From: Candidatus Omnitrophica bacterium UBA6215
Lineage (GTDB): Bacteria; Omnitrophota; Gorgyraeia; Pluralincolimonadales; Pluralincolimonadaceae
DNA: 64,000 nucleotides
Assembly (NCBI GenBank): GCA_002421665.1
Contig: DISH01000005.1
Span: 78,092-142,091 of the forward strand
Reading direction: 5' to 3'
This document shows positions 7,831 to 59,738 of this stretch, one piece after another. The notes beneath the pieces were generated by a model. It saw nothing but the letters and a program-made list of their open reading frames with translations, did not search any database and had not been told where the DNA came from. A program made the position numbers and the translations under genes. Each line of letters opens with the position of its first letter. Position 1 is the first letter of the stretch.

Positions 7831-8790
7831 ATGATAAAGAGATCGGCATTCTTCGCGTTACTTGTATTGTTTGTCGTGTATTTAGGCCCTGTATTTTCTT
7901 ATATAGGCGTAGGGTCATTATCCGGCCATTCTGTACGGGTAGACGGCTCGGTTGCAGACTGGGTCGGGACCCCTCCAGAAAAATATAATACCGCCATAAT
8001 AAGCAAAGGCGAGTATATATGGAAAGACGCCCTTAATGATGATACCGGTAACGGAAGATATACCTATCCGAAGAATCCCGCTTTCGCGAAAGCTGCCGAC
8101 CTGGAAGAATTCCGGATCACATGGGACTCAAAGAATATGTATTTTCTAATAAGATCGTCGCGTCCCGGCGACTGGTGGTCTCCCGTAAGGCTTATAGCCA
8201 TAGATACGGACGGGATGGGCGGGGGCAGGAGGGGAATGAAGGTCATACAGCAGGGCGACCTCAACTCCCTTGATGCCGATACCGGGACATTCGGGGAGCT
8301 TAGGGTATCTAATTCGCTTGCGGCGGATTATATCATATGTATCGCGGGAACCTATAAAGGCCGCATATGGGACGCGAAAGGCAATCTTGTAGCTAAGGCC
8401 ATAGGCGAAAAAACAGACACCAGGGGATTCAAGATCAAGGATTCCAATATGTGTGCCGTCGAGGTCCAGGTCCCGCTGAAGATACTCGGTAATCCGGCGG
8501 GTAAGACCTGGAGGTTCATAGTGGCAATGGGCACAGAGGACAAGGAACATCTCAGGGAGATACATAAAGAAGCCGATGATTGGTACGGCGGCGGCGGGGA
8601 AGATACTTTCTCCGAAGATGGCGTGGACCCCGATTACTATGATCTGGCGAGCCCCAGCCAGACGACGCAGGAGATAGAGCTATCGAGTTATAAGCCGAAC
8701 GCGCCGGCAGGCGATACGTCGGCTTTCGCGGTCATAGAGAAGTCATATCTTCAGGTCAAATTTTCCCCCTACTTGCAGGTTACTAAATAA
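7831..8790 (+). CDS. Secreted protein, paralog C (more divergent) of the same domain family
   Basis: Start taken at MIKRSAFFALLVLFVVYLGPVFS (signal peptide). The ORF-track start at 7801 reads through the upstream hairpin. Blocks GEYIWKDALNDDTGNGRYTYP, DLEEFRITWDSKNMYF, IDTDGMGGGRRGMKVIQQGDLN and DWYGGGGED are conserved. Confidence 0.8.
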   Translation: MIKRSAFFALLVLFVVYLGPVFSYIGVGSLSGHSVRVDGSVADWVGTPPEKYNTAIISKGEYIWKDALNDDTGNGRYTYPKNPAFAKAADLEEFRITWDSKNMYFLIRSSRPGDWWSPVRLIAIDTDGMGGGRRGMKVIQQGDLNSLDADTGTFGELRVSNSLAADYIICIAGTYKGRIWDAKGNLVAKAIGEKTDTRGFKIKDSNMCAVEVQVPLKILGNPAGKTWRFIVAMGTEDKEHLREIHKEADDWYGGGGEDTFSEDGVDPDYYDLASPSQTTQEIELSSYKPNAPAGDTSAFAVIEKSYLQVKFSPYLQVTK

Positions 8791-15906: not shown

Positions 15907-15920
15907 TGGCACATTGTATC

Positions 15921-15948
15921 TTGACAAATATATCCCATATGATATAAT
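15921..15948 (+). promoter_or_regulatory. Near-consensus sigma70 promoter TTGACA-N16-TATAAT upstream of gltB
   Basis: TTGACA at 15921-15926 and TATAAT at 15943-15948, both perfect hexamers, in the 120-nt intergenic region before gltB. Confidence 0.55.
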
Positions 15949-15981
15949 TATTACACCTAAAACGACTTAGGAATAGACGAG

Positions 15982-16025
15982 GACGTCTTCTATATATCTT
16001 TAATAATAGAAGGCGTCTTTTTTTA
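15982..16025 (+). terminator. Terminator-like hairpin plus U-tract in the gltB leader (possible attenuator)
   Basis: GACGTCTTCTAT (15982-15993) pairs with ATAGAAGGCGTC (16006-16017) as a 12-bp stem with one G-U pair, followed by TTTTTTT. It sits between the putative promoter and the gltB start at 16030/16042. Confidence 0.45.
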
Positions 16026-16029
16026 TCAG

Positions 16030-19000
16030 TTGGTTAAACAAATGAGAGAGAACGGGACCATATTAAACCATCTGCCCGAAAAACAAGGGCTCTATGATCC
16101 GCAATTCGAGCATGACAGTTGCGGCGTAGGATTCGTCTGCGATATAAAGGGCCGCAGGTCACACGGTATCGTCGAAAAGGGTGTTCTTGCGCTTGAGCAC
16201 CTGATGCACAGGGGCGCTACGGGTTCCGACCCGAAAACGGGCGACGGCGCCGGCGTTCTTATCCAGGTACCGCACGAGTTCTTCCGGAGGGAATGCCCTA
16301 AATCGGGAATATCGTTGCCCGGCGCGGGAGATTACGGGGCGGGGCTTGTTTTTCTTCCTACCGAAGGCAGGGACAGGAAATTCTGCGAAGATAATTTCAG
16401 GAAGATAGCAGAGGAAGAGGGCCTCATCTTTTTGGGCTGGCGTGATGTACCCGTCGATGATTCCATGATAGGCAAGACGGCCCGTGATGCCGAGCCGGTG
16501 ATAAAGCAGGTCTTTATCGGAAAACCTTCCTCGATAAAAGATGAACTTACATTTGAGAGGAAACTCTTTGTAGCGCGCAGGCGCGCAGAGAACCTGGTCC
16601 GGGGCTCGAAGATAGCGCAGAAAAAATATTTTTATGTAACGGGCCTTTCCTGCCGTACGGTAAGCTATAAAGGCCTTTTGATGTCCACCCAGCTCAAGGA
16701 GTATTTCCTCGACCTCAAGGACGAGAGCATCAAAAGCTCGTTTGCCCTTATCCATGCCCGTTACAGCACGAATACTTTCCCTACATGGGACCTCTCGCAG
16801 CCGTTCCGCTACCTGGCGCACAACGGCGAGATAAATACCCTGCGCGGAAATATCAACTGGATGGCCGCCAGGCAGGGCCTCTTCAAGAGCGGTATGTTCG
16901 GAAAGGATATAAAGAAGATATTCCCCGTCATCGTCCCAGGCGGCAGTGATTCGGCGATGCTGGATAATGCCCTCGAGATGCTCATTCTTAGCGGCCGCCC
17001 GTTGCACCATGTGATGATGATGCTCATCCCGGAAGCATGGCAGAGCAATAACCAGATAGATTCCCGCAGGAAGGATTTCTACGAATACCACGCCTGCCTT
17101 ATGGAGCCATGGGACGGACCCGCCGCCGTCGCGTTCACCGATGGAAGGTATATTGGCGCTACGCTTGACCGTAACGGATTGAGGCCGGCGCGTTATGTTG
17201 TGACGAAAGACGATATGGTAGTAATGGCCTCGGAAGTCGGCGTGCTTGATATTCCCGCCGAGAATATACTGGTCAACGGTCGGCTTAAACCGGGCAGGAT
17301 GTTCCTTATCGACACGGTCGAGGGGCGCATTATCGACGACAAGGAGCTCAAGGACAAGATTGCCTTTGAAAAACCCTACGGGAAGTGGCTGAAAGACAAC
17401 CTCGAGACCCTCGAGGATGTCAAGGCGCCTAAAAAAGTAAAAGCGCCCGCGATAAAGGATATATTAAGCCAGCAGAAGGCATTCGGGTACACCAAAGAAG
17501 CCCTGAAGACGATAATAAGGCCGATGGCCGAGACCGGCGCCGAACCTACCGGCTCGATGGGCGACGACACCCCGCTTGCGGTCCTTTCCGAGAAACCGAG
17601 GATATTCTACGATTATTTCAAGCAGTTGTTCGCGCAGGTCACGAACCCGCCGATAGACCCTATCCGCGAGGAACTCGTGATGACCCTTGATACTTACCTC
17701 GGGCGCGAGAAGAATATTTTGGAAGAGACCCCGGACCACTGCCACAGGCTCAAGGTCGGTAATCCCGTGCTCACCGACGAAGAGCTCGCAAGGATAAAGC
17801 ATATAAAGAACAGGACTTTCAGGACGAAAGTGATATCCACCTTGTTCGAGGTAAAGAAGGGCAAGACAGGGTTCAGGAAATCGCTCGACAGGATACGCAG
17901 GGAATCTTCGGCCGCGATAAAGGCCGGATACAGTTTCATTATATTGAGCGACAGGGGAGTAGATGGAAAACGCGCAGCGCTTCCCGCGCTTTTGGCCTGC
18001 GCTTCGGTGCACCATCACCTTATTCGCGAGGCGACGCGCACCCAGGCGAGCATAATCCTCGAGAGCGGAGAGCCGAGGGAAGTGGCGAATTTCGCGCTCC
18101 TGTTTGGTTACGGGGCCGATTGCGTAAATCCATACCTGGCGTACAGGTCTATAGAAGAGCTGATAAAGTCCGGTGAACTCGACAAGGATTTCAGGACCGC
18201 GCAAAAAAATTACATACACGCCCTGACGCACGGGATAATGAAGATACTCTCGAAGATGGGCATTTCGACGATACAAAGCTACCGCGGCGCGCAGATATTC
18301 GAAGCGCTGGGCCTGAACGGCGAGATAATAGACGAATGCTTTACCGGCACGGTATCGAGGATAGGCGGCGTGGGCCTTGATGTCATAGCGCAGGAGACCA
18401 TAGCCAGGCACGACGACGCTTTCCCGTCGCGGCCAGGCAGGGAGCCGCAGCTCGACAACGGCGGCCTTTACCAGTGGCGCCGCGACGGAGAGTTCCACCT
18501 TTGGAACCCCGAATCGATAGCCGCCCTGCAGGATTCCGTCCGCAATAATGATTTTGAAGCCTTCAAGAGGTTCAGCGGTCTCATCAATAACCAGGAAAAC
18601 CACCTTTGCACTTTACGCGGCCTCCTGAAATTCAAGGAGACGCAGGCTATACCCATAGGGGAGGTTGAGCCCGCCTCCGAGATAGTAAAGCGTTTCGTGA
18701 CGGGTGCCATGAGCTTCGGCTCCATCAGCAAGGAAGCCCACGAGGCGATGGCCACCGCGATGAACCGCATGGGCGCCAAGTCCAATTCCGGAGAGGGCGG
18801 CGAAGACCCTATGAGGTTTATCCCGCTTCCCAACGGCGACAGTTTGCGCTCTGCCACTAAGCAGGTGGCCTCCGGCAGGTTCGGTGTCACGAGCAACTAT
18901 CTTGCCAATGCCGACGAACTCCAGATAAAGATAGCCCAGGGTGCCAAGCCGGGCGAAGGCGGCCAGCTTCCAGGGCACAAGGTAAGCGTTACGATCGCGA

Positions 19001-45717: not shown

Positions 45718-45782
45718 GCCGTTACAATTTGCTTTACTTTATGTTATGCGTATGTTAAATTAATTCTTTAAATGAGGATTTT

Positions 45783-48721: not shown

Positions 48722-49786
48722 ATGCGCAAGACCCTTAAAGAGATTGCGCAGTTAATAGACGGCGAAGTAATAGGCGACAGCGGCATAGTCATAACAGGCA
48801 TAAGCGGTATAAGGGAGGCGGAAGAGGGAGACCTCTCTTTTCTGGCCAACCCGCGTTATGCGCCGCTTATGGAGATAACGAAAGCAGCTGCCGTTATAAC
48901 GTCCCGGGAGATAGATTCCGCCCCGAAGCCGATCATAAGGACCGATAATCCTTCGTTGGCTTTTTCGAAGATAATTTCCATGTTGTTGCCTAATAGCCAG
49001 CAGTATCCTTCCGGTATACATCCCGCGGCGGTAATAGGCAAGAATGTAAAACTCGGCCGCGATATTGCAGTACAGGCCTATGCCGTTATAGACGACGGCG
49101 CCGTTATCGGCGACAGGACGATAATTTATTCCGGCTCGTATATAGGATATAATGCGAAAGTCGGGTGCGATTGCCTTATATATCCCAATGTAGTGCTGCG
49201 AGAGAATGTCGTTATCGGCGACAGGGTCATAATACATTCCGGGACATGTGTCGGGAGCGACGGTTTCGGGTTTGCCACCATTAACGGCGAACACCATAAG
49301 ATACCGCAAATAGGGACAGTGGTAATAGAAGACGATGTTGAGATAGGCGCTAACGTAACCATAGACAGGGCGCGTTTCGGTAAGACGGTCATCGGCCGCG
49401 GCACCAAGATCGACAATCTTGTCCAGATAGCTCATAATGTTGTCATAGGCGAGAATTCGATAATAATAGCCCAGGCCGGTATATCCGGCTCTACCGTAAT
49501 AGGCAAGAATGTTACCATAGCCGGGCAGGCGGGGCTAGTGGGCCATATAACTGTCGGAGATAATGCGGTCCTTGCAGCCCAGGCCGGTGTGACAAAATCT
49601 GTTCCCGCAAATATATGCGTATCAGGTTACCCGGCTAAACCGCACGATGAGGCTAAAAGGCTTAACGCTTTTATTTCACGTCTTCCCCAGATAGCCGAAG
49701 ACATAAAGAATCTAAAGGAAAGAATAACCCAGTTGGAGAACAAAATATCAGATGGAACAACAGCTGACGATAAAAAGCGCGGTTGA
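48722..49786 (+). CDS. lpxD: UDP-3-O-acylglucosamine N-acyltransferase
   Basis: The N-terminus aligns with LpxD ([22 protein letters not shown]) and is followed by hexapeptide repeats. A GTG at 48701 is an alternative start. Confidence 0.9.
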
Positions 49787-51083
49787 GATAGAGGGCGTAG
49801 GGCTCCATACGGGTGCCAAAACCCGGATGCGGCTGCTTCCCGCCGAACAGAATGCGGGAATAAGTTTCGTGCGCGTAGACCTGCCGGGCAAACCCGTGAT
49901 AAAAGCTAATATAGCCAATGTCATGGAGTCCAGCCGTAAGCTCAGGAGGACGTCGTTGGCTTTTGATGACGCTGAGATCCATACGATCGAGCACCTTATG
50001 TCCGCGCTAAGCGGCATGGCTATCGATAATATAACCATAGAGATCAACGGTCCAGAGATACCCGGACTTGACGGATCAGCCGCTTCTTTCGTAGAGCTGA
50101 TCAAGAAGGCGGGGCTAGAGCGCCAAGCGGAGCAGAGGAAGTCCTTTACCGTAAAAGAACCTATATGGCTGGAAGAGGACGATACCGTGCTTGCGATACT
50201 GCCCGATTCTGAATTTAAGATATCCTATATGTTGAGCTATGACCACCCGATGCTGAGGTCGCAGTATGTTTCAGTAGTTATCAATCCCGAAACATACGAA
50301 AAAGAAATAGCGCCGACCAGGACTTTCTGTCTTGAAGCGGAAGCCGAGGCGCTCAGGACGCAAGGGCTTGGCAAAGGAGCGAATTTCGACAACACGCTTG
50401 TCGTTGGAAAGGACGGCGTAATAAAGAACAAACTGAAGTTCGATGATGAATTCGCCCGTCACAAGATATCCGATCTCATAGGCGACCTCTACCTTCTCGG
50501 TATGGCGCTTAAAGGCCACGTTATAGCCGTAAAGTCCGGGCATCCGCTTAACATCAGGCTTCTACAAAAGATCAGGCAGCAGCAGGAACGTATGCGCGCA
50601 GGCGCCATGGAAAGCAAGGGCCCGGGAATAGTAGGCACTCCCCTGGATATAAACGACATAAAGAAGATCCTTCCCCACCGCTATCCATTCCTTTTAGTGG
50701 ACAGGGTCATAGAGCTGGAAGAGGACAAGAGGGCGGTAGGGATAAAGAACGTGACCATGAACGAATTCTATTTCCCCGGGCATTTCCCTGATATGCCCAT
50801 CATGCCAGGCGTGCTTATCATGGAGGCCCTGGCGCAGGTTGCCGGCGTCATGATGCTTAACAAGAGGGACAACAAGGGTAAATACGCTTTCTTCATGTCG
50901 ATGGATAAGGTCAAGTTCCGCAAGGCGGTAGTGCCCGGCGATCAGCTTATCCTTGAGACAGAGGTGCTTAAACTGAGGTCGAAGACCGTCCAGGTAAGGG
51001 CTGTTGCCAGCGTGGACGGCAAGGTAGCCGCCGAGGGCGAACTGATGTTCGCGCTTGTAGGCGGGGAAGAGGCGTCGGAGTAG
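49752..51083 (+). CDS. lpxC: Bifunctional UDP-3-O-acyl-N-acetylglucosamine deacetylase / 3-hydroxyacyl-ACP dehydratase (LpxC-FabZ fusion)
   Basis: The N-terminus aligns with LpxC ([20 protein letters not shown]). The C-terminal ~150 aa form a FabZ hot-dog fold ([14 protein letters not shown]...[23 protein letters not shown]). Confidence 0.9.
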
Positions 51084-51876: not shown

Positions 51877-52683
51877 ATGGACACAATAGGTCTGATCGCA
51901 GGTAAGAGTGATTTTCCGCTTATTTTTGCCCGCGCGGCTAAGGCCAAGGGTTACAGCGTTGTGGCGGTAGGTATAGAGGGTGAGACGAAGCCCGAAGTTG
52001 AAGCCCTTGCCGATAATTTCCGTTGGGTAAGCCTGGGAGAACTTTCGAAAGTTCTCGATTTTTTCAAGGCGGAGGGCATAAAGAAGGCTGTTATGGCCGG
52101 GGGTATAACCAAGTCCAGGATATTCAACGAGGCCCTTAAAATAGACGGATTGATGAAATCTATCTTGGTAAAGGCCCTCGACAGGAAGGACGATACCCTC
52201 CTCTCCATGATAACATCTACGTTGAGGTCTTCCGGGGTCGAACTGCTCGATTCAACCCTTTTCTTGGAAGATTTGCTTCCGGCAGCGGGCTTGTTGACCT
52301 CCGTCAGACCTTCCCCGTCCCAGGAGGACGACATAAGGTTCGGCATTCCAATAGCCAAAGAGATCGCCGGGATGGATATAGGCCTTTCAGTGTTTATCAA
52401 GGACAAGGCCGTTATAGCAGTCGAGGATATCGAAGGCACCGATGCCATGATAAGGCGCGGCGGAAGACTTGCCGGTCCGGGAGGAACGGTCGTGAAAGTC
52501 GCGCGGCCTAAGCAGAGCATGAAGTTCGACCTGCCCGTGATAGGCCCGCAGACTATAGCCTCGATGGCGGAAGCGAAAGCCGGTTGTATTGCCATAGAAG
52601 CAAAGAAGACCCTGATCATAGACAAGGAGGAGACCGTGCGGCTTGCCGATGGAAAAGGCGTCGCCGTAACGGCCATAAAATAA
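51877..52683 (+). CDS. lpxI: UDP-2,3-diacylglucosamine hydrolase LpxI (DUF1009 family)
   Basis: IGLIAGKSDFPLIFARAAKAKGYSVVAVGIEGETKPEVEALAD is the LpxI-type N-terminus. Position directly after lpxA matches the known synteny. Confidence 0.65.
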   Translation: MDTIGLIAGKSDFPLIFARAAKAKGYSVVAVGIEGETKPEVEALADNFRWVSLGELSKVLDFFKAEGIKKAVMAGGITKSRIFNEALKIDGLMKSILVKALDRKDDTLLSMITSTLRSSGVELLDSTLFLEDLLPAAGLLTSVRPSPSQEDDIRFGIPIAKEIAGMDIGLSVFIKDKAVIAVEDIEGTDAMIRRGGRLAGPGGTVVKVARPKQSMKFDLPVIGPQTIASMAEAKAGCIAIEAKKTLIIDKEETVRLADGKGVAVTAIK

Positions 52684-52684
52684 A

Positions 52685-53368
52685 ATGAGCGGTATACTGC
52701 TCTTGGGCTCGGAAGATGAAGGCCTTAAACGCGCCAGGAAGGCGCTTAAGGAATCGGATTACCGGGTGCATTTCTCGGATGAGACCATTGACGTAAAAAC
52801 AGCATACGAGGAAGCCCTCAGCCGCCGTCCGGACGTGATCATCCTGGATTTCACCTCACCGAAAGTGTTTGACGCCCAATCAGCTTATCGCGCCTTTAAG
52901 AAAGACAGATTCCTTAAGGAGACGCTCCTTTTTGCCGTCCTGCCTGCTGACGGCATCCAGGTCCTCGATAATATACCCGCTATAGGAGATTTTATATTTG
53001 AGCCTTTTAATCCTTCCGAGCTGGTTACGAGGGTGAAGGTGCTTCTCAAGAAGGCCATACCTACCGATTCGGAAGACATGATAAAGGCCGGGGATCTTAT
53101 AATAGACGTATCCAGGTATGAGGTGACCCTGAGCGGGAGCAAGCTTGAATTGACCTTCAAGGAGTATGAGCTCCTTAAGTTCCTTGCCTCCAACAAGGGC
53201 CGCGTATATTCCCGCGACCAGCTCCTGGACAAGATCTGGGGCTATGACTATTACGGCGGGACCAGGACGGTAGATGTACATATCCGCCGTTTGCGCAGCA
53301 AGATAGAGGACCGAAGGCACGCCTTCATAGAGACAGTCCGCAATATCGGCTACAAATTCATCGCATAA
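52685..53368 (+). CDS. Orphan OmpR/PhoB-family response regulator with degenerate receiver domain (GlnR-like candidate)
   Basis: C-terminal winged-helix trans_reg_C region LTFKEYELLKFLASNKGRVYSRDQLLDKIWGYDYYGGTRTVDVHIRRLRSKIE. The receiver keeps an Asp in IILDF, but the conserved Thr/Ser and Lys positions appear substituted (FAVLPA and EPFNPSEL in place of KPF). No kinase gene is adjacent. Confidence 0.8.
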   Translation: MSGILLLGSEDEGLKRARKALKESDYRVHFSDETIDVKTAYEEALSRRPDVIILDFTSPKVFDAQSAYRAFKKDRFLKETLLFAVLPADGIQVLDNIPAIGDFIFEPFNPSELVTRVKVLLKKAIPTDSEDMIKAGDLIIDVSRYEVTLSGSKLELTFKEYELLKFLASNKGRVYSRDQLLDKIWGYDYYGGTRTVDVHIRRLRSKIEDRRHAFIETVRNIGYKFIA

Positions 53369-53400
53369 TCCCTTCCCGTATCCTTCCTGAAATTAATCGA

Positions 53401-53445
53401 GATTTAACCTGCGCGTAACACAGATTTAACATCCATCCGTATACT
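53401..53445 (+). promoter_or_regulatory. Triple direct-repeat operator GATTTAAC-n6-GTAAC-n6-GATTTAAC followed by TATACT -10 box (putative OmpR-family activator site)
   Basis: Three xTAAC half-sites at 11-bp periodicity (53401-53430), with TATACT at 53440-53445. The same arrangement recurs at 58160-58205 upstream of glnA. Confidence 0.5.
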
Positions 53446-53478: not shown

Positions 53479-53652
53479 GTGAAAGGGAAAGAGCCAGCAA
53501 GTAAGTACCGGTGCGCTAAGTGTGGATACATCACACAACGTACGGCGCCCCCTAAGAACTGCCCGATATGCAGGGCCGGTTCGGAAACGTTTGACGACAT
53601 CGGAGTCGATAGGTCATCGAAGATCAAGGCGATCTATAAAACCCGAAGTTGA
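53479..53652 (+). CDS. Small zinc-ribbon protein (57 aa; CxxC...CxxC), hypothetical
   Basis: GTG start with GGGAG SD. Translates to VKGKEPASKYRCAKCGYITQRTAPPKNCPICRAGSETFDDIGVDRSSKIKAIYKTRS. Below the ORF-track cutoff. First ORF downstream of the repeat operator. Confidence 0.45.
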   Translation: MKGKEPASKYRCAKCGYITQRTAPPKNCPICRAGSETFDDIGVDRSSKIKAIYKTRS

Positions 53653-53678: not shown

Positions 53679-54458
53679 ATGAAAAAGCTGGCGAGTTTGT
53701 TAGTTTTAGTTTCATTATTGTGGGTTCCTTCCCTGGTTTTCGCAACAGCCACCACGCATATCTGGGCCCCATCAACCGATGTCCAGGCTTACGGTGTCAT
53801 GCATATAACCGGTGATATGTACCTTCCTACCGGAAGGGATTCAGCCGGTAACAGGCCGTCAACGGTCACCAACGAAGGCCTTACGGTCGGCGTCCTGCCG
53901 TTCGAGAAGTTCAATATCGAGGCCGGTTTTGACCACAAGACCGGTTTTGGCGACCTGGATGATTATCCCATGTATTTCAACGCTAAAGGCGGGATCCCGG
54001 AAGGCGCTTTCGGTGAATATTTCCCAGCTTTGGCCGTGGGCGCCTATGATATCGGCACAAAGAAGAACGCCACGAACTATAACATAGTTTACGGCAAAGC
54101 GGCCAAGACGTTCAAGGCGGGTGATTTTGACCTTGGAAGAGTATCCGCCGGTTATTTTTACGGGAACGACAAACTGCTTCTTGACCAGAACGGCAATAAG
54201 GACAACGACGGTTTCTTCGGCGCTTGGGAAAGAACGATGTCGGAGATATCTGACAAGCTCTGGCTTTGTGTTGAGTACCAGGGGACCAAGAGCGCTTACG
54301 GATGCTGGAACTTCGGCGGTTCGTGGAAATTTTCCGACAATGTCTCAATGCTCGTCGGTTTCGACCGTTACAACAACAGGAACCTTGCCGATACGGTTAC
54401 GGTCCAGTTCGATATAGACTTCGACGTATTCAGCAAAATGTTCAAGAACAATAAGTAG
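53679..54458 (+). CDS. Secreted/outer-membrane porin-like protein, hypothetical
   Basis: Strong SD and signal peptide MKKLASLLVLVSLLWVPSLVFA. Aromatic-rich alternating strands suggest a beta-barrel. Sits immediately upstream of amt. Confidence 0.45.
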   Translation: MKKLASLLVLVSLLWVPSLVFATATTHIWAPSTDVQAYGVMHITGDMYLPTGRDSAGNRPSTVTNEGLTVGVLPFEKFNIEAGFDHKTGFGDLDDYPMYFNAKGGIPEGAFGEYFPALAVGAYDIGTKKNATNYNIVYGKAAKTFKAGDFDLGRVSAGYFYGNDKLLLDQNGNKDNDGFFGAWERTMSEISDKLWLCVEYQGTKSAYGCWNFGGSWKFSDNVSMLVGFDRYNNRNLADTVTVQFDIDFDVFSKMFKNNK

Positions 54459-54467
54459 AGGTGACCC

Positions 54468-55835
54468 ATGTTTAAAAAACTAGCGTTAATACTCGCGGTA
54501 TTCGCGATAACAGTCGGGACTTCGTGTCTGGCGTTTGCCCAGGACCCGAGCGGCGCCGAGACCCTTGCACAAAACCCGAATTCACCGGTCGATTACGTGT
54601 GGGTCCTTGTATGCGGATTCCTCGTCTTCTTTATGCAGGCAGGATTCGCGATGGTTGAAGCCGGGTTTTGCAGGGCCAAGAACGCGACAAACCTAATGGC
54701 GAAGAATACGATAGACTTTACTTTGGCTTCGCTCATCTTCATGGCTTTCGGGTTCGCGTTCATGATGGGTAATGATTACAACGGCATAATAGGTACTTCC
54801 GGATGGTTTCTCCACGGCGATAACTATGATGTAGGCCGTTACCTCATGTTCTTCTGGCAGCTGGTATTTGCCGGGACGGCGGCGACGATAGTCTCGGGTG
54901 CTGTAGCCGAAAGGCTCAAGTTCAAGGCCTATTTCCTTTACAGTATCCTGGTAACCGCCCTTATATATCCGTTGTATGGACACTGGGTATGGGGCGGCGG
55001 ATGGCTTTCTAAACTGCCCTTCGGAGTCGGCCACGTTGATTTTGCCGGTTCCGGAGTCGTTCACACTATCGGCGGCTTCGTCGGTCTCGCCGGTGCGATA
55101 GTCCTGGGGCCGCGCTTCGGGAAGTTCGATAAGAACAGGAAGCCGAAGGCCATACCGGGCCACAGCATTACTCTTGCGGCGCTTGGTACCTTTATCCTCT
55201 GGTTCGGATGGTTCGGGTTCAATCCCGGATCCACGTTTTCCGCCCATCAGTTGAGGATAGCGGTGATCGCGGTCAATACCAACCTTGCCGCTGCCGCAGG
55301 TGCAGCTGTCGCCTTGTTGCTTGTCTTCATGAAGACGAAGAAGTGGGATGTAGGCATGATGCTTAACGGTTGCCTGGCCGGCCTCGTGGCCATTACCGCG
55401 CCGTGCGCGTGGGTAGAGGCGTGGGCAGCTGTTGTTATAGGCGCCATAGCCGGTGCATTGGTGGTTGTTGGCGTCTATTTCTGGGAAAACCGCGGCATCG
55501 ATGATCCTGTCGGTGCTGTAAGTGTCCACGGCATAAACGGTGTGTGGGGCCTTATAAGCGTCGGTCTTTTTGCCGACGGCACCTATGGCTTAGGCTCAAC
55601 TTCCGAACCCTTCGTTAAAGGACTGTTCTACGGAGGCGGTTCCGGGCAGTTGATCGCTCAGCTCATAGGCGCTGCTGTGTGCGTTTCGTGGGCGTTCATA
55701 CTCGGTTTTGCAGGTTTCAAGTTAATGGATAAGATGTTCGGTATAAGGGTTTCCCCGCACGAAGAGCTCAAGGGTCTGGACATCCCGGAGCACGGGACTC
55801 CCGCTTATCCTAATTTCTATACGTACAGTAATTAA
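54468..55835 (+). CDS. amtB: Ammonium transporter (Amt family)
   Basis: Signal peptide, 11 TM segments, and Amt signatures DFAGSGVVHTIGG and GFNPGS. Confidence 0.95.
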   Translation: MFKKLALILAVFAITVGTSCLAFAQDPSGAETLAQNPNSPVDYVWVLVCGFLVFFMQAGFAMVEAGFCRAKNATNLMAKNTIDFTLASLIFMAFGFAFMMGNDYNGIIGTSGWFLHGDNYDVGRYLMFFWQLVFAGTAATIVSGAVAERLKFKAYFLYSILVTALIYPLYGHWVWGGGWLSKLPFGVGHVDFAGSGVVHTIGGFVGLAGAIVLGPRFGKFDKNRKPKAIPGHSITLAALGTFILWFGWFGFNPGSTFSAHQLRIAVIAVNTNLAAAAGAAVALLLVFMKTKKWDVGMMLNGCLAGLVAITAPCAWVEAWAAVVIGAIAGALVVVGVYFWENRGIDDPVGAVSVHGINGVWGLISVGLFADGTYGLGSTSEPFVKGLFYGGGSGQLIAQLIGAAVCVSWAFILGFAGFKLMDKMFGIRVSPHEELKGLDIPEHGTPAYPNFYTYSN

Positions 55836-55843
55836 AGAGGGCC

Positions 55844-56188
55844 GTGAAAATGAAAAAAATAGAAGCGGTTGTTCGAGTCGAGAAGCTTGAGGAGATCACC
55901 GAGGCCCTGGATAAGTTCGGCTATCCCGGAATGATGATAACGCACATTGAAGGGCATGGCCGCCAGAAGGGGCTCTCGGAGCAGTTCAGGGGAAGGGAGT
56001 ATAAGGTGAATTTCCTTCCGAAGATCAAGATCGAGATCGTCGTAAAGGATGGCGATGTCGAGAAATTGGTAAAGGCCATATCGGGCATAGCCAGGACCGG
56101 CGAGATAGGAGACGGGAAGATATTCATATACCCCGTCGAAGATACTATCAGGATACGCACCGGAGAGAAAGGCGAGGGCGCGATTTAG
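55844..56188 (+). CDS. glnK: Nitrogen regulatory protein P-II
   Basis: MKKIEAVVRVEKLEEITEALDKFGYPGMMITHIEGHGRQKG ... T-loop RGREYKV. Confidence 0.9.
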   Translation: MKMKKIEAVVRVEKLEEITEALDKFGYPGMMITHIEGHGRQKGLSEQFRGREYKVNFLPKIKIEIVVKDGDVEKLVKAISGIARTGEIGDGKIFIYPVEDTIRIRTGEKGEGAI

Positions 56189-56191
56189 GCC

Positions 56192-56371
56192 ATGTTCGAC
56201 AAGGAACTGATAGAGAAGATACGCAGGCTGAAGGAAGACAAGGGCTATACTCTCTATGATCTGGCGAAAAGGGTCGACATTCAGCCGTCGACCCTGGAGC
56301 GCTGGTTCAAGACCAACCGCATAAACAAGGTGTACGCGGGCGTTGTAAAAGAGAGGCTGGGCATAAAATAA
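56192..56371 (+). CDS. Small HTH protein (59 aa), hypothetical
   Basis: MFDKELIEKIRRLKEDKGYTLYDLAKRVDIQPSTLERWFKTNRINKVYAGVVKERLGIK contains a helix-turn-helix. Lies between glnK and the second amt gene. Below the ORF-track cutoff. Confidence 0.4.
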   Translation: MFDKELIEKIRRLKEDKGYTLYDLAKRVDIQPSTLERWFKTNRINKVYAGVVKERLGIK

Positions 56372-56433: not shown

Positions 56434-57792
56434 ATGGCGAAAGTCTTGAAAAGTCCGCCGTTCTGGTTCTTTGCGGTATTCCTGCTTTTTACTGTGATAG
56501 CAACGGTCGTTGCGGCAGAGGAGGTCGCGCCTTCCGCGGCGGCGCCCTCAGAATTAGCCCAGGTTGATACAGGGGATACCGCATGGTTGCTGACTTCGGC
56601 AGCCCTTGTCCTGGTCATGACGCCGGCACTGGCTTTTTTCTACGGAGGGCTTGTCCGCAGGAAGAACATCCTGTCCATACTGATGCAGTGTTTCATGCTC
56701 ATGTGCATAATAACCATACAATGGGTGCTGTTCGGGTATTCGCTTTCATTTGGTCCGGATATCAAGGGGATTATAGGAGGATTGGGGTGGTTTGGCCTTA
56801 AGAACGTCGGCCTTGAGCCCAACCCGGTTTACGCCGCTACGGTCCCTCACCAGGCGTTCATGATATTCCAGGCTATGTTCGCTATCATAACCCCGGCCCT
56901 TATCCTGGGCGCTTTTGCCGAAAGGATGAAATTCTCGACCTTCTGCGTATTTTCCGTATTGTGGGCTACGATAGTCTATGATCCGGTCTGCCATTGGGTA
57001 TGGGGGGCGGGAGGATTCCTCAGGGCCGACGGAGCGCTCGATTTCGCCGGAGGCACCGTTGTGCATATTAACGCCGGTATAGCCGCGCTTGCCAGCGCGC
57101 TGGTGCTGGGCAAAAGGCAGGGCTATCCGCACAAGATATCGCCTCCGCATAACCTTCCTTTTGCCGTTCTGGGTGCGGGGTTGCTCTGGTTCGGATGGTT
57201 CGGTTTTAACGGAGGCAGTGCCCTTGGTTCGGGTGCCTTGGCAACGAATGCTTTTGTGGTCACGCATATTGCCGCCGCGGCAGCCGGACTTACGTGGGCC
57301 ATGCTTGACTGGATATTCAATTCCCGGTCCACCGTTTTGGGCATAATAACCGGAGCGGTTGGCGGCCTGGTAGCCATAACCCCCGCATCGGGTTTCGTGA
57401 ATCCGATAGGCGCTATCTGGATAGGGATAGGTGTCTCGGTGCTTTGCTACATATCTGTTGCAGTCCTGAAAGTGAAATTCGGCTACGACGATTCACTAGA
57501 TGCATTTGGCGTCCATGGAGTGGGAGGAATATGGGGAGCGCTTGCGACGGGGCTTTGGGCCACGAAGGCGGTCAATCCCGCCGGAGCGGACGGCCTTTTC
57601 TACGGGAATCCCGCCCAGTTCTTTATACAGTTCAAAGCGGTTATAATTACGGCTGCCTATTCGTTCGTTGTGACATTTGTCCTGCTCAAGATATTGGATG
57701 CGATCATGGGTTTGCGCGCCAGCGAACAGGATGAGAAGATAGGTCTTGATTTGACCCAGCACCGTGAAGCCGGTTACACGGTACTAGATTAA
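56434..57792 (+). CDS. amt: Ammonium transporter (second Amt paralog)
   Basis: DFAGGTVVHINAG and GFNGGS signatures; 452 aa. Confidence 0.95.
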   Translation: MAKVLKSPPFWFFAVFLLFTVIATVVAAEEVAPSAAAPSELAQVDTGDTAWLLTSAALVLVMTPALAFFYGGLVRRKNILSILMQCFMLMCIITIQWVLFGYSLSFGPDIKGIIGGLGWFGLKNVGLEPNPVYAATVPHQAFMIFQAMFAIITPALILGAFAERMKFSTFCVFSVLWATIVYDPVCHWVWGAGGFLRADGALDFAGGTVVHINAGIAALASALVLGKRQGYPHKISPPHNLPFAVLGAGLLWFGWFGFNGGSALGSGALATNAFVVTHIAAAAAGLTWAMLDWIFNSRSTVLGIITGAVGGLVAITPASGFVNPIGAIWIGIGVSVLCYISVAVLKVKFGYDDSLDAFGVHGVGGIWGALATGLWATKAVNPAGADGLFYGNPAQFFIQFKAVIITAAYSFVVTFVLLKILDAIMGLRASEQDEKIGLDLTQHREAGYTVLD

Positions 57793-57798
57793 GGAGGA

Positions 57799-58146
57799 AT
57801 GATAATGAAATATTTAATTGCCATTGTACAGCCTGACCGGCTCGATGAAGTGCTCACCAGGCTCGAAGAGAAGGAGATACATCTTGTGACCGTCACTCCG
57901 GTCATGGGACGCGGCCGCCAGAAGGGTATTTCGGAGGTCTACAGGAGCCATAAAGAGGCAGGCAGCCTTCTTAAGAAGGCAAAACTTGAGATCGCCGTCA
58001 ACGACGATTTCGTTAAGCCTGCCATAGACGCGATACTGGAAGGCGCCCGCACAGGACATGTCGGAGACGGAAAGATATTTGTCCTGGATATGCCCGAATG
58101 CATAAGGATAAGGACGGGCGAGAAAGGCTGTCCGGCAATAGGATAA
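57799..58146 (+). CDS. P-II family nitrogen regulatory protein (second, divergent copy)
   Basis: KYLIAIVQPDRLDEVLTRLEEKEIHLVTVTPVMGRGRQKG shows the PII fold. Immediately downstream of amt. Confidence 0.85.
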   Translation: MIMKYLIAIVQPDRLDEVLTRLEEKEIHLVTVTPVMGRGRQKGISEVYRSHKEAGSLLKKAKLEIAVNDDFVKPAIDAILEGARTGHVGDGKIFVLDMPECIRIRTGEKGCPAIG

Positions 58147-58159
58147 AACCGCCCCCGGA

Positions 58160-58205
58160 GATTTAACATTCCCGTAATATGGATTTAACAATAGGGTTGT
58201 ATACT
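58160..58205 (+). promoter_or_regulatory. Second copy of the triple direct-repeat operator GATTTAAC-n6-GTAAT-n6-GATTTAAC plus TATACT, upstream of glnA
   Basis: GATTTAAC at 58160-58167 and 58182-58189 with GTAAT in between, then TATACT at 58200-58205. Identical architecture and spacing (within 1 nt) to the site at 53401. Confidence 0.5.
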
Positions 58206-58235: not shown

Positions 58236-59738
58236 ATGGCAAAGAAGAAGGAAGTAAAGGAAGTCAAGACAGCCAATCCGTTGGCGAACGGCTCGTTCAA
58301 TGAGAAAGCCGCCCGCGACGTGATAAAGTTGATCAAGGAAAAAGACATCAAGATGGTCGACCTGAAGTTCAACGACCTTCCCGGTCTTTGGCAGCATTTT
58401 ACTATACCCGCCTCAGAGATAAAGGAGATGGACGATATCACCCACTCCATATGGGTCGATGGTATAGGTTTCGACGGTTCCTCGATACGCGGTTTCCAGA
58501 AGATACAGGAATCCGACATGATCCTTATCCCGGACCCGACGAGCGCGGTGGTAGATCCCGTCTGCGAAGTACCGACGGTCAGCATACTTTGTGATATTTA
58601 TGACCCGCTTACGCGCAAGCCGTATTCGCGCGACCCGCGTTATATAGCGAGGAAAGCGGAGAAGTACCTCAAGGATACCGGAATAGCCGACAGTATCTAT
58701 TTTGGGCCGGAAGCCGAATTCTTCCTTTTTAACGACGTGCGTTTCGACCAGAACGAGAATTCAGGCTATTATTTCGTGGATTCCAACGAAGGTGACTGGA
58801 ATACCGGACGCAAGGAAGAACCGAACCTTGGATACAAGATCCGTTACAAGGAAGGATACTTCCCGGTCCCGCCGCATGACACCCTGCAGGACCTGAGGAG
58901 CAGGATGATACTCAAGATGAAGGAAGCCGGTGTCAACATCGAGGTCCATCATCATGAGGTTGCGACTGCCGGCCAGTGCGAGATCGACATAAAGTTCGAT
59001 AAGCTCACCAAGATGGCCGACAGCCTGCTTATGTATAAGTACATAATCAAAAACATGGCCAGAAAGGCCGGCATGGTGGCTACTTTCATGCCTAAACCGC
59101 TCTTTGCCGATAACGGTTCCGGTATGCACTGCCATCAGAGCTTATGGAAGAACGGCGTTAATCTGTTCTATGACAAGAACGGCTACGCGCTCCTGAGCCA
59201 GACCGCCAAGTATTACATCGGCGGGTTGCTCAAGCACGCGAACAGCCTTATGGCATTCTGCGCCCCGACCACAAACTCTTATAAGAGGCTTGTCCCGGGC
59301 TACGAAGCGCCTGTTAACCTTGTATATTCCGCCCGTAACCGTTCTGCCGCAGTACGTATCCCCATGTACAGCGACAGCCCGAAATCCAAGAGGATCGAGT
59401 TCAGGCCTCCGGACCCGTCATGTAACGGCTATATCGCGTTCGCTGCCATGCTCATGGCCGGTTTGGACGGTATCCAGAACAAGATCGATCCGGGCAAGCC
59501 TACCGACAAGGACCTCTTTGAGTTGGGAGAGGAAGAGATGTCCAAGATACCGACCGTCCCGTCATCGCTGCGCCGTTCCATTGATGCGCTTGAGGCGGAC
59601 CACGATTATCTGCTCAAGGGCGGTGTCTTTACCAAGGATGTGATAGACATCTGGATCGAATACAAGAGGAAGAAGGAGATAGACGCCGTCAGGATGCGTC
59701 CGCATCCCTACGAGTTCTACCTTTACTTCGATATCTGA
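58236..59738 (+). CDS. glnA: Glutamine synthetase type I
   Basis: Beta-grasp N-terminal domain ([14 protein letters not shown]) and catalytic domain motifs ([31 protein letters not shown]). Confidence 0.95.

What the first reader, a model, noticed from the sequence alone, without database searches (positions are those of the whole stretch)
52685..53368. Orphan OmpR-family regulator with degenerate receiver sits directly upstream of the nitrogen cluster
The winged-helix output domain is canonical, but the receiver appears to lack the conserved Thr/Ser and Lys (EPF instead of KPF; the acidic pocket is SEDE rather than DD), and no histidine kinase is encoded nearby. Atypical, phosphorylation-independent OmpR-type regulators of this kind include GlnR of Streptomyces and Mycobacterium. 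Its position, as last gene after lpxI and immediately before the operator-bearing amt/glnK operon, makes it the prime candidate for binding the TTAAC repeats.
Basis: partly seen in the sequence, partly recalled or inferred. Interest (0 to 1): 0.65.

Follow-up and report, generated by a model that had tools for sequence, protein, structure and literature searches.

The report
GlnR-like orphan nitrogen regulator in Omnitrophota
The gene encodes an OmpR-type DNA-binding protein with a disabled phosphorylation site and no partner kinase nearby; it most likely switches on the neighbouring ammonium-uptake and glutamine-synthetase genes, as GlnR does in actinobacteria, which would place that control system in several other phyla.

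Summary
ORF 52685-53368 encodes a 227-aa OmpR/PhoB-type protein with a canonical winged helix (Trans_reg_C, 3.5e-29). Its receiver still folds as a receiver but has lost the acidic pair (G8/S9), the Thr (L86) and the Lys (E106). No histidine kinase lies in the 64-kb window.

The closest solved relatives by sequence are actinobacterial GlnR proteins. All 15 DNA-contact residues reported for S. erythraea GlnR are identical here.

The TTAAC repeats are GlnR-box-like operators: 3-4 [T/G]TAA[C/T] half-sites at 11-bp spacing, followed 9-10 nt later by a -10-like TATACT. In the window they occur only upstream of the Zn-ribbon/amt/glnK operon and upstream of glnA.

Relatives with degenerate receivers and no adjacent kinase sit inside nitrogen-assimilation clusters in Dehalococcoidia, other Chloroflexota and Armatimonadota, and the Chloroflexota loci carry the same operator layout. 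Related Acidimicrobiia genes sit next to glnA, but no operator was detected there.

Most likely function: a phosphorylation-independent activator of nitrogen assimilation. This is a new member of a known kind. It is not a strict GlnR orthologue: it lacks the Thr9/Arg52 network and falls in a sister clade. Binding and the input signal are untested.

The parts
52685..53368 (+). GlnR-like atypical OmpR/PhoB-family regulator, 227 aa. Degenerate receiver about residues 1-124 (52685-53056); winged-helix DNA-binding domain about residues 131-227 (53075-53365).
   Evidence: ORF; Pfam; PDB sequence search; receiver residues; model.
51877..52683 (+). lpxI, last enzyme gene of the bamA-skp-lpxD-lpxC/fabZ-lpxA-lpxI operon. 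The regulator gene is appended to it with a 1-nt gap, so it is probably co-transcribed and translationally coupled.
   Evidence: Pfam LpxI_N/LpxI_C. Same junction in Omnitrophota orthologous loci L001-L003 and in L092, L095, L102-L104.
53393..53430 (+). Operator 1: four direct half-sites at 11-bp period. TTAAT (53393-97), TTAAC (53404-08), GTAAC (53415-19), TTAAC (53426-30).
   Evidence: Pattern search: 3 hits versus 0.21 expected. Top hit in the window of a PWM trained on other loci, 39.5 bits versus a shuffle maximum of 15.3. Top hit of a Chloroflexota-only PWM. Conserved in orthologous loci.
53440..53445 (+). -10-like hexamer TATACT, 9 nt after the last half-site. There is no recognisable -35, so the promoter looks activator-dependent.
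   Evidence: Sequence. No full sigma-70 promoter found. A TAnnnT element sits at the same 9-10 nt distance in all 14 aligned operators from several phyla.
53479..53652 (+). First gene behind operator 1: 57-aa rubredoxin-like zinc-ribbon protein.
   Evidence: Pfam RUBY_RBDX 5.9e-11. Conserved position in Omnitrophota loci.
53679..54458 (+). 259-aa secreted protein with no Pfam family, possibly an outer-membrane channel. Second gene of the operon.
   Evidence: ORF with signal-peptide-like N-terminus. No Pfam hit. Conserved position.
54468..56188 (+). amt1 (54468-55835) and glnK1 (55844-56188).
   Evidence: Pfam Ammonium_transp 1.5e-133 and P-II 5.4e-30.
56192..56371 (+). 59-aa Cro/C1-type HTH protein between glnK1 and amt2. 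It is a rival candidate DNA binder.
   Evidence: Pfam HTH_26 3.6e-5. Conserved in L001, L101, L103, L104.
56434..58146 (+). amt2 (56434-57792) and glnK2 (57799-58146).
   Evidence: ORFs; tblastn paralogues.
58163..58189 (+). Operator 2: three half-sites, TTAAC (58163-67), GTAAT (58174-78), TTAAC (58185-89). The position of a fourth, upstream site is CCCCC.
   Evidence: Second-best PWM hit in the window (28.6 bits; 16.5 bits). Conserved upstream of glnA in L001, L101, L103, L104.
58200..58205 (+). -10-like TATACT, 10 nt after the last half-site of operator 2.
   Evidence: Sequence; alignment of operators.
58236..59738 (+). glnA (500 aa), the gene behind operator 2.
   Evidence: Pfam Gln-synt_C 3.3e-137.

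Best explanation
The gene encodes a GlnR-like, kinase-less (orphan) OmpR/PhoB-family transcription factor that controls nitrogen assimilation.

Shown: it has a canonical winged helix that carries every DNA-contacting residue of actinobacterial GlnR. Its receiver still folds but lacks the acidic pair, the Thr and the Lys needed for normal phosphotransfer chemistry. The window contains exactly two high-scoring operators, each made of 3-4 [T/G]TAA[C/T] half-sites at 11-bp spacing. One precedes the Zn-ribbon/secreted-protein/amt/glnK/HTH/amt/glnK operon and the other precedes glnA.

Inferred: three or four protomers bind head-to-tail to these half-sites. They would span roughly -59 to -22 relative to the start site implied by the conserved -10-like TATACT, so the promoter-proximal protomer sits downstream of the missing -35. 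From there they would recruit RNA polymerase, as in the M. tuberculosis GlnR activation complex, and switch on ammonium uptake and glutamine synthesis, presumably under nitrogen limitation. Activity would not depend on Asp phosphorylation. D55 probably has a structural role in oligomerisation through the alpha4-beta5-alpha5 face, whose D102-F103, P107, E112 and R116 are invariant in the family. The gene is expressed constitutively as the last cistron of the bamA-lpx operon, so control must be post-translational. The signal is unknown.
For: Domain and residue anatomy.

No kinase in 64 kb, with positive controls. This is the only OmpR-type gene in the window.

Similarity to GlnR: best PDB sequence hits are GlnR (129.3, 119.9 and 118.9 bits) against 105 bits for RegX3 and 68 bits for the PhoB DBD. 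The DBD is 57% identical to SaeGlnR. The 15 residues T149, K151, R169, W177, R186, T187, V190, H191, R193, R194, R196, T209, R211, N212 and Y215 of SaeGlnR are identical at an offset of +8 (alignment).

Operator format matches published GlnR boxes: gTnAc-n6-GaAAC, GTAAC in the co-crystal, and t/gTAAC-n6-Gc/aAAC in M. smegmatis.

Operator statistics: the three-site pattern gives 3 overlapping hits at 2 loci against 0.21 expected. PWMs trained without the window rank the two sites first and second among about 128,000 positions.

Cross-phylum co-location:
- Dehalococcoidales L004/L005: split gltS, regulator, operator, amt, glnK, glnA.
- L013, L016, L019: regulator, operator, amt.
- L024: regulator, operator, glnA.
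- L006: glt genes then regulator, with an operator before a small ORF plus amt.
- L010: gltB, gltD, regulator.
- Armatimonadota L017 and many Acidimicrobiia: glnA then regulator.

The operator stays with the amt operon when Fur and AhpC genes are inserted between it and the regulator (L002).

Tree: an NJ tree of residues 100-226 separates all degenerate-receiver, kinase-less proteins, including the Mtb and Sae GlnR references, from PhoB/RegX3/OmpR in 191 of 200 bootstraps.

Geometry: all 14 aligned operators are followed at 9-10 nt by TAnnnT. In the GlnR complex the b2 site also lies downstream of the -35.
Against: - Nothing here shows binding, activation or nitrogen responsiveness. The start site and -10 are inferred.
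- D55 is retained, so phosphorylation by an unlinked kinase or by acetyl phosphate is not excluded.
- The receiver does not specifically resemble the GlnR receiver. Pfam GlnR_1st gives E = 0.052. No GlnR receiver appeared among the top 60 PDB hits of the N-terminal profile. The Thr9/Asp50/Arg52 network of GlnR is absent here: G8 and T57.
- PhoB shares most of the recognition-helix residues, so residue identity alone does not fix specificity.
- Raw identity over residues 100-226 is similar to a canonical Halanaerobium regulator (50.8%) and to SaeGlnR (47.2%). The tree uses few outgroups, chosen by a motif-biased scan.
- Within Omnitrophota the invariant neighbour is lpxI.
- Other DNA binders are encoded in some clusters: the 59-aa HTH here and an NrpR-like gene in L004.
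Confidence: 0.72

Rival explanations
1. The regulator belongs functionally to the operon that carries it (bamA-skp-lpxD-lpxC/fabZ-lpxA-lpxI) and controls envelope or LPS biogenesis. Its position next to the amt cluster would then be incidental.
For: In every Omnitrophota orthologous locus the gene abuts or overlaps lpxI. In L002 two unrelated genes separate it from the amt operon. A weak two-half-site match lies upstream of bamA at 45732-45769.
Against: The bamA-upstream match scores 10.7 bits, below the mean best score of shuffled sequence (11.4). Homologues in Dehalococcoidia and other phyla are embedded in amt/glnK/glnA/gltBD clusters, not envelope clusters. NCBIfam scores for envelope-stress regulators are far below cut-off, for example BaeR at 97.8 against 380. 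The only significant operators in the window precede amt and glnA.
Confidence: 0.06
2. The TTAAC operators are real nitrogen operators but are bound by another factor, such as the 59-aa Cro-type HTH at 56192-56371 or an unlinked canonical OmpR/PhoB-type regulator. The orphan regulator would then have other targets.
For: A conserved small HTH gene sits inside the regulated operon. In Streptomyces, PhoP binds at GlnR-target promoters (glnA, amtB) and MtrA represses the same nitrogen genes (titles and abstracts listed). Binding was not tested here.
Against: Tandem direct repeats at 11-bp period are the binding format seen for OmpR/PhoB winged helices bound head-to-tail; from general knowledge, Cro-type dimers usually bind inverted repeats. 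The small HTH is absent from the Dehalococcoidia and Chloroflexi loci that carry the same operator, whereas the OmpR-type gene is directly adjacent to the operator there. This is the only OmpR-type gene in the window.
Confidence: 0.1
3. It is a nitrogen regulator acting at these operators, but as a repressor that occludes the promoter rather than as an activator.
For: The half-sites would cover about -59 to -22, that is the -35 region and the spacer, which could block RNA polymerase. GlnR acts as both activator and repressor in actinomycetes (general knowledge; not drawn from the passages read).
Against: Neither promoter has a usable -35 hexamer, which is typical of activator-dependent promoters. 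The same four-site layout with the proximal site downstream of the -35 is the activating architecture solved for GlnR at amtB. The fixed 9-10 nt distance to the -10 in 14 operators from several phyla suggests a stereospecific contact with polymerase.
Confidence: 0.15
4. It is a conventional phosphorylation-dependent response regulator whose kinase is encoded elsewhere, and the receiver changes are tolerated.
For: D55 is retained in all Omnitrophota orthologues. Only 64 kb of the genome could be inspected.
Against: The metal-binding acidic pair, the Thr and the Lys are all replaced. In related family members the Asp itself is Glu or another residue. None of the roughly 60 related loci has an adjacent kinase, whereas nearly all gammaproteobacterial PhoB-type controls (22 of 23) and the Halanaerobium canonical regulator do.
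Confidence: 0.08

Closest known systems
GlnR of Actinomycetota (S. coelicolor, M. tuberculosis/M. smegmatis, S. erythraea, A. mediterranei): orphan atypical OmpR/PhoB-type global nitrogen regulator
   Same: - Two-domain architecture.
- No adjacent kinase.
- Non-canonical phosphorylation pocket with the Asp retained.
- DBD 57% identical, with all 15 reported DNA-contact residues identical.
- Operators made of 5-nt t/gTAAC-type sites with 6-nt spacers, in sets of 3-4.
- Targets are amt-glnK and glnA.
- The proximal site lies between the -35 position and the -10.
- Groups with GlnR against PhoB/RegX3 in 191 of 200 bootstraps.
   Different: - It falls in a sister group with Dehalococcoidia/Chloroflexota proteins, not inside the actinobacterial clade.
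- The receiver is not detectably GlnR_1st (E = 0.052).
- It lacks the Thr9 and Arg52 partners of the Asp-centred charge network (G8 and T57 here).
- It lies in a diderm candidate phylum and is appended to the LPS/BamA operon.
- Half-sites are mostly TTAAC rather than GTnAC/GAAAC.
PhoB (E. coli) and pho-box promoters
   Same: OmpR/PhoB family. Nearly the same recognition helix (RTVDVHIRRLR). Tandem direct repeats at 11-bp period that replace the -35. Best NCBIfam model by score (PhoB TIGR02154, 136.5 bits).
   Different: The score is far below the PhoB cut-off of 296. There is no PhoR next to it. The receiver lacks D/T/K. The half-site is TTAAC/GTAAC rather than TGTCA. The neighbours and targets are nitrogen genes, not pst/pho genes.
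Other phosphorylation-independent OmpR-type regulators (for example H. pylori HP1043, PDB 2hqr; cyanobacterial NblR)
   Same: Degenerate receiver, no cognate kinase, winged-helix output. 2hqr appears among both sequence and fold hits. The NblR model scores 105 bits.
   Different: Much weaker sequence similarity than to GlnR. Different regulons and operators.

Membership tests
OmpR/PhoB-family response regulator | C-terminal winged-helix Trans_reg_C domain | tested here: met
   PF00486 at 3.5e-29, 101 bits against a cut-off of 26.2.
OmpR/PhoB-family response regulator | N-terminal CheY-like receiver fold | tested here: met
   The family N-terminal profile hits OmpR-type receivers in the PDB at up to 7.5e-20. 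The AF2 model shows a five-strand alternating strand/helix receiver-type domain with block pLDDT mostly 84-92. Foldseek hits full-length KdpE, PhoP and others at 1e-16. The single sequence is below the Pfam Response_reg threshold (13.4 against 30.2 bits).
OmpR/PhoB-family response regulator | Conserved phosphorylation residues (acidic pair, Asp, Thr/Ser, Lys) | tested here: not met
   G8/S9, D55, L86 and E106: only the Asp remains.
OmpR/PhoB-family response regulator | Cognate histidine kinase encoded alongside | tested here: not met
   No HisKA/HATPase in the 64-kb window by Pfam on 20 of the larger unassigned ORFs or by the PhoR-core tblastn probe, which found the kinase next to nearly all PhoB-type control loci. 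The rest of the genome was not available.
Actinobacterial-type GlnR | Orphan regulator with a non-canonical pocket but the conserved Asp retained | tested here: met
   D55 is retained and the other pocket residues are replaced. No kinase. The GlnR description comes from PMC10704036.
Actinobacterial-type GlnR | Asp50-Arg52-Thr9 charge network that stabilises the homodimer | tested here: not met
   The window protein has G8 and T57 at the equivalent positions. Actinomycete loci show T...D-A-R, and a few Dehalococcoidia, Armatimonadota and Polyangia proteins keep T and R.
Actinobacterial-type GlnR | DNA-contacting residues of the GlnR DNA-binding domain | tested here: met
   15 of 15 residues listed for SaeGlnR are identical in the alignment (offset +8). 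The DBD is 55-57% identical. PhoB shares many of these residues, so this feature is necessary but not sufficient.
Actinobacterial-type GlnR | GlnR boxes (5-nt a/b sites of GTnAC/GAAAC type, 6-nt spacers, two to four sites) upstream of amtB-glnK and glnA | tested here: met
   53393-53430 and 58163-58189. Published consensus. Occupancy by this protein was not tested.
Actinobacterial-type GlnR | Promoter-proximal site downstream of the -35, with a non-optimal -35 (activation-complex geometry) | tested here: inconclusive
   The last half-site ends 9-10 nt before a conserved TAnnnT in 14 operators, and there is no -35. This matches the description. The transcription start site is not mapped.
Actinobacterial-type GlnR | Phylogenetic placement with GlnR | tested here: inconclusive
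   It is in one clade with the Mtb and Sae GlnR references against PhoB/RegX3/OmpR (191 of 200 NJ bootstraps). However, it sits in a Dehalococcoidia/Omnitrophota sister group, and the outgroup sampling is small and motif-biased.
Actinobacterial-type GlnR | Pfam GlnR_1st N-terminal domain | tested here: not met
   E = 0.052, 13.9 bits against a cut-off of 27. Ten of 22 family members reach E < 0.01, best 5.7e-5.
Actinobacterial-type GlnR | Nitrogen-responsive control of amt/glnA in vivo | not testable with these tools
   Uncultured Omnitrophota MAG; no expression data available.
PhoB | Reaches the PhoB equivalog score; PhoR adjacent; TGTCA pho boxes | tested here: not met
   TIGR02154 scores 136.5 against 296.2. 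No PhoR. The half-sites are TTAAC/GTAAC.
Envelope-stress OmpR-type regulators (BaeR, CpxR, OmpR) | Reaches family score and clusters with them | tested here: not met
   BaeR scores 97.8 against 380 and OmpR 72 against 331. The CpxR and OmpR DBDs are among the weakest PDB hits.

The most novel reading that the evidence does not exclude
The GlnR-type system consists of a kinase-less OmpR-type regulator, a four-site operator at 11-bp period, and a fixed distance to the -10. On this reading it is not an actinobacterial speciality but an old, widely shared nitrogen switch, present in Chloroflexota and Omnitrophota (regulator plus operator seen here) and probably in Armatimonadota and Acidimicrobiia (regulator next to glnA). 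In the Omnitrophota/Dehalococcoidia branch the receiver would have been rebuilt, without the Thr9/Arg52 network, into a sensor for a different nitrogen signal, for example direct binding of GlnK/PII or of a metabolite such as 2-oxoglutarate or glutamine. In Omnitrophota the gene's hard-wiring to the BamA/LPS operon would couple envelope growth to nitrogen uptake.
Probability: 0.12. Interest if true: 0.75.

Novelty: new member of a known kind. Interest (0 to 1): 0.5.

Why it matters
GlnR-type nitrogen control is described as a trait of actinobacteria, and its input signal is still unknown after two decades. Here the same regulator type, operator format and promoter geometry recur around amt/glnK/glnA in Omnitrophota and Chloroflexota (including Dehalococcoidia). 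Related kinase-less regulators sit next to glnA in Armatimonadota and Acidimicrobiia. That gives three things:

- A testable regulon prediction for uncultured phyla with almost no known regulators.
- A natural comparison set of receivers with different pocket remnants, which can be used to ask what these pseudo-receivers sense.
- A compact, well-defined operator and promoter pair that can be tested in vitro or in a heterologous host.

I found no paper in the held library that describes GlnR-type regulators in these phyla. That is absence from one library, not proof of novelty.

Tried and rejected
1. Receiver similarity to GlnR. A profile of 15 N-terminal domains was searched against the PDB. 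It hit ordinary OmpR-family and PleD receivers, and no GlnR receiver appeared in the top 60. The GlnR link therefore rests on the DNA-binding domain, the operators and the genomic context, not on the receiver.

2. Fold search with the AlphaFold model. It confirms the family fold but does not discriminate between subfamilies. KdpE and PhoP rank first and Mtb GlnR ranks 19th, though GlnR has the highest percent identity.

3. Rfam scan of the window. It found only a tRNA, so the operators and leaders match no known RNA family.

4. Autoregulation or envelope link. The weak half-site pair upstream of bamA (45732-45769) is at chance level. The two-half-site pattern alone is not enriched in the window: 13 hits against 11.9 expected. 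Only the arrays of three or more sites are significant.

5. gltB and the second glnA/nadE have no operator. gltB has its own consensus promoter plus a leader hairpin.

6. Metagenome scan with the exact operator. Eight of 15 hit loci are the same Omnitrophota arrangement. The other seven (L093, L094, L096, L098, L100, L105, L106) carry no detectable nitrogen genes and were not explained. L093 and L106 look like longer tandem repeats.

It is not a census of the family.

8. The first bootstrap attempt with Biopython timed out and was redone with a custom NJ routine.
Full report
**The object.** ORF 52685-53368 (+) encodes 227 aa. A 99%-identical protein occurs in a Candidatus Omnitrophota MAG, and about 40 orthologues at 57-80% identity were found; every one that carries a source name is from Omnitrophota.

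The upstream genes are bamA, skp, lpxD, a lpxC-fabZ fusion, lpxA and lpxI. The regulator's ATG lies 2 nt after the lpxI stop.

Downstream, the order is:
- operator 1;
- a 57-aa rubredoxin-like Zn-ribbon ORF;
- a 259-aa secreted protein with no Pfam family;
- amt and glnK;
- a 59-aa Cro-type HTH;
- a second amt and glnK;
- operator 2;
- glnA;
- a DUF5684 gene on the minus strand;
- glutamine-dependent NAD synthase and a second glnA.

gltB and gltD lie 32 kb upstream.

**Checking the observation.** The winged helix is canonical (Trans_reg_C, 3.5e-29). Response_reg scores 13.4 bits against a cut-off of 30.2.

The result agrees with the tool-made alignment of the family's N-terminal profile to B. 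subtilis PhoP receiver 1mvo:
- The acidic pair is G8-S9, followed by E10-D11-E12.
- The Thr is L86.
- The Lys is E106 ('EPF').
- The aromatic switch residue is F103.

In more distant relatives this Asp is sometimes Glu or another residue.

The domain is nevertheless a conserved, folded receiver. The N-terminal profile hits OmpR-type receivers at 7.5e-20. The AlphaFold model has a five-strand alternating strand/helix receiver-type domain with block pLDDT mostly 84-92. Receiver identity among Omnitrophota orthologues is 45-71%.

No histidine kinase is present. Pfam on 20 of the larger previously unassigned ORFs found none. A PhoR HisKA+HATPase probe detected the kinase next to nearly all (22 of 23) gammaproteobacterial PhoB-type control loci and next to the Halanaerobium canonical regulator. 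It found nothing in the window or next to any related atypical regulator; its one other hit, in L049, lies about 5 kb away on the opposite strand. This is the only OmpR-type gene in the window.

**What it resembles.** By sequence, the best solved relatives are 8hig, 8hml and 8hih. 8HML is the S. erythraea GlnR DNA-binding domain on DNA, and 8HIH is the M. tuberculosis GlnR transcription activation complex (PMC10235972); the fold-search library describes 8HIG as the same S. erythraea domain on its cognate DNA.

The DBD scores 119.9 bits against GlnR, 84.7 against the next DBD-only entry (VicR) and 68 against PhoB. Identity to the SaeGlnR DBD is 57%.

The paper lists the SaeGlnR residues that contact DNA: T149, K151, R169, W177, R186, T187, V190, H191, R193, R194, R196, T209, R211, N212 and Y215. 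In the alignment all 15 are identical in the window protein at an offset of +8. PhoB shares much of this helix, so this is supportive rather than decisive.

NCBIfam places no equivalog above threshold; PhoB is best at 136 against 296.

The receiver is not specifically GlnR-like. GlnR_1st gives E = 0.052, although 10 of 22 family members reach E < 0.01. The Thr9/Asp50/Arg52 network described for GlnR is replaced by G8/D55/T57.

**The operators.** Operator 1 is TTAAT-n6-TTAAC-n6-GTAAC-n6-TTAAC (53393-53430). Operator 2 is TTAAC-n6-GTAAT-n6-TTAAC (58163-58189). The three-site pattern gives hits only at these two places, against 0.21 expected.

This is the published GlnR-box format: gTnAc-n6-GaAAC, GTAAC in the co-crystal, and t/gTAAC-n6-Gc/aAAC in M. 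smegmatis.

A PWM built from operators in other loci ranks the two window sites first and second, at 39.5 and 28.6 bits. The best score in shuffled sequence was 15.3. A PWM built only from six Chloroflexota sites still ranks them first and second.

Both operators are followed after 9-10 nt by TATACT, and neither promoter has a usable -35.

**Evidence from elsewhere.**

Omnitrophota orthologues keep the order lpxI, regulator, operator, Zn-ribbon, secreted protein, amt (L001, L092, L095, L097, L102-L104). They also keep glnK, operator, glnA (L001, L101, L103, L104). In L002, Fur and AhpC genes are inserted after the regulator, and the operator stays with the amt operon.

Homologues at 42-52% identity in other phyla have equally degenerate receivers and no adjacent kinase, and they sit in nitrogen clusters:
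- Dehalococcoidales L004/L005: split glutamate synthase, regulator, operator, amt, glnK, glnA, then an NrpR-like gene.
- L013, L016, L019: regulator, operator, amt.
- L024 (Chloroflexi): regulator, operator, glnA.
- L006: glutamate synthase then regulator, with an operator before a small ORF plus amt.
- L010: gltB, gltD, regulator.
- Armatimonadota L017 and many Acidimicrobiia: glnA then regulator.

Fourteen operators, from Omnitrophota, Chloroflexota (including Dehalococcoidia), an actinomycete MAG and one unassigned metagenome contig, align as four half-sites, then 9-10 nt, then TAnnnT.

An NJ tree of residues 100-226 separates all these atypical proteins, together with the Mtb and Sae GlnR references, from PhoB, RegX3, OmpR and a canonical Halanaerobium regulator in 191 of 200 bootstraps. 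The window protein groups with Dehalococcoidia, not inside the actinobacterial GlnR clade.

**Mechanism.** These parts are shown: the anatomy, the operators, and the cross-phylum linkage of regulator, operator and nitrogen genes.

These parts are inferred. Three or four protomers bind head-to-tail across roughly -59 to -22, with the proximal one downstream of the absent -35. This is the arrangement solved for GlnR at amtB, where that protomer touches sigma region 4 and the beta flap and the upstream ones touch alpha. On that basis I expect activation of ammonium uptake and glutamine synthesis under nitrogen limitation, independent of Asp phosphorylation.

The gene is expressed constitutively from the bamA-lpx operon, so control would be post-translational and the signal is unknown. 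The invariant D102-F103, P107, E112 and R116 lie on the beta5-alpha5 region (secondary structure from the model) used by OmpR-family dimers; this fits constitutive oligomerisation.

**Rivals.** Four alternatives were weighed:
- An envelope regulator, because of its operon. This is disfavoured by the contexts in other phyla and by the lack of any significant operator near bamA.
- Another factor binding the repeats, such as the 59-aa HTH. This is disfavoured because that gene is absent from the Dehalococcoidia loci that keep both operator and regulator, and because direct repeats at 11-bp period are the binding format of head-to-tail OmpR/PhoB winged helices.
- A repressor rather than an activator. 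This remains possible.
- A conventional phospho-regulator with a distant kinase. This is unlikely given three lost pocket residues and family members without the Asp.

**Verdict.** The protein works like GlnR and belongs to a GlnR-containing superclade of kinase-less OmpR-type regulators. It fails two strict GlnR features, the receiver signature and the charge network, so I file it as a new member of a known kind rather than as a GlnR orthologue.

I found no paper in the held library on GlnR-type regulators in Omnitrophota or Chloroflexota. Interest is moderate. The finding extends a supposedly actinobacterial nitrogen switch to several poorly known phyla and yields directly testable operators, but the principle itself is known.

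Noticed in passing
window 15915-16030: Upstream of gltB there is a near-consensus sigma-70 promoter (TTGACA-17-TATAAT). It is followed by a strong hairpin with a U-run just before the start codon (dG -25.3 kcal/mol, z = -5.7). This looks like a leader terminator or attenuator. No Rfam family matches it, and there is no GlnR-type operator here.
   Followed up: partly
window 53479-53652: A 57-aa rubredoxin-like zinc-ribbon ORF (PF21349, 5.9e-11) is the first gene behind operator 1. It keeps this position in all Omnitrophota loci examined. Its role in a nitrogen operon is unknown.
   Followed up: partly
window 53679-54458; L026 10828-12435: A 259-aa secreted protein with no Pfam family always sits between the Zn-ribbon gene and amt. 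In another Omnitrophota lineage (L026) a GlnR-box-like operator precedes a BBP2/OmpL-type porin. The 259-aa protein may therefore be an outer-membrane channel for ammonium or a related solute.
   Followed up: partly
window 56192-56371: A 59-aa Cro/C1-type HTH protein (HTH_26, 3.6e-5) lies between glnK1 and amt2 and is conserved in Omnitrophota loci L001, L101, L103 and L104. It may be a second, lineage-specific regulator.
   Followed up: partly
window 52681-52687; L001-L003 about 8001-8004: The regulator's start codon abuts or overlaps the lpxI stop in every Omnitrophota orthologue. This implies translational coupling of a nitrogen regulator to the BamA/LPS biogenesis operon.
   Followed up: partly
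L004/L005 10982-11977: The Dehalococcoidales nitrogen cluster also carries a gene with WHD_RNase_R and NRD1_2 domains. From memory, this is the domain pair of the archaeal nitrogen repressor NrpR. It sits right after glnA, so two nitrogen regulator types may coexist there.
   Followed up: no
L026 10427-10810: A stand-alone 105-aa Trans_reg_C protein with no receiver is encoded directly behind a four-half-site GlnR-box-like operator in a high-GC Omnitrophota MAG.
   Followed up: partly
L093, L094, L096, L098, L100, L105, L106: Seven metagenome contigs carry the exact 29-nt operator pattern but have no detectable amt, glnK, glnA or regulator genes. In L093 and L106 the unit continues as further 11- or 22-bp repeats. 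The origin and meaning are unknown.
   Followed up: partly
window 45732-45769 (minus strand): A two-half-site TTAAC/ATAAC match lies in the dnaB-bamA intergenic region, upstream of the operon that carries the regulator. It scores at chance level (10.7 bits against a shuffle mean maximum of 11.4), so it is not evidence of autoregulation.
   Followed up: yes
window 49752-51083: lpxC and fabZ are fused into one 443-aa ORF. The fusion is conserved in the Omnitrophota loci (LpxC + FabA domains in L001-L003).
   Followed up: no
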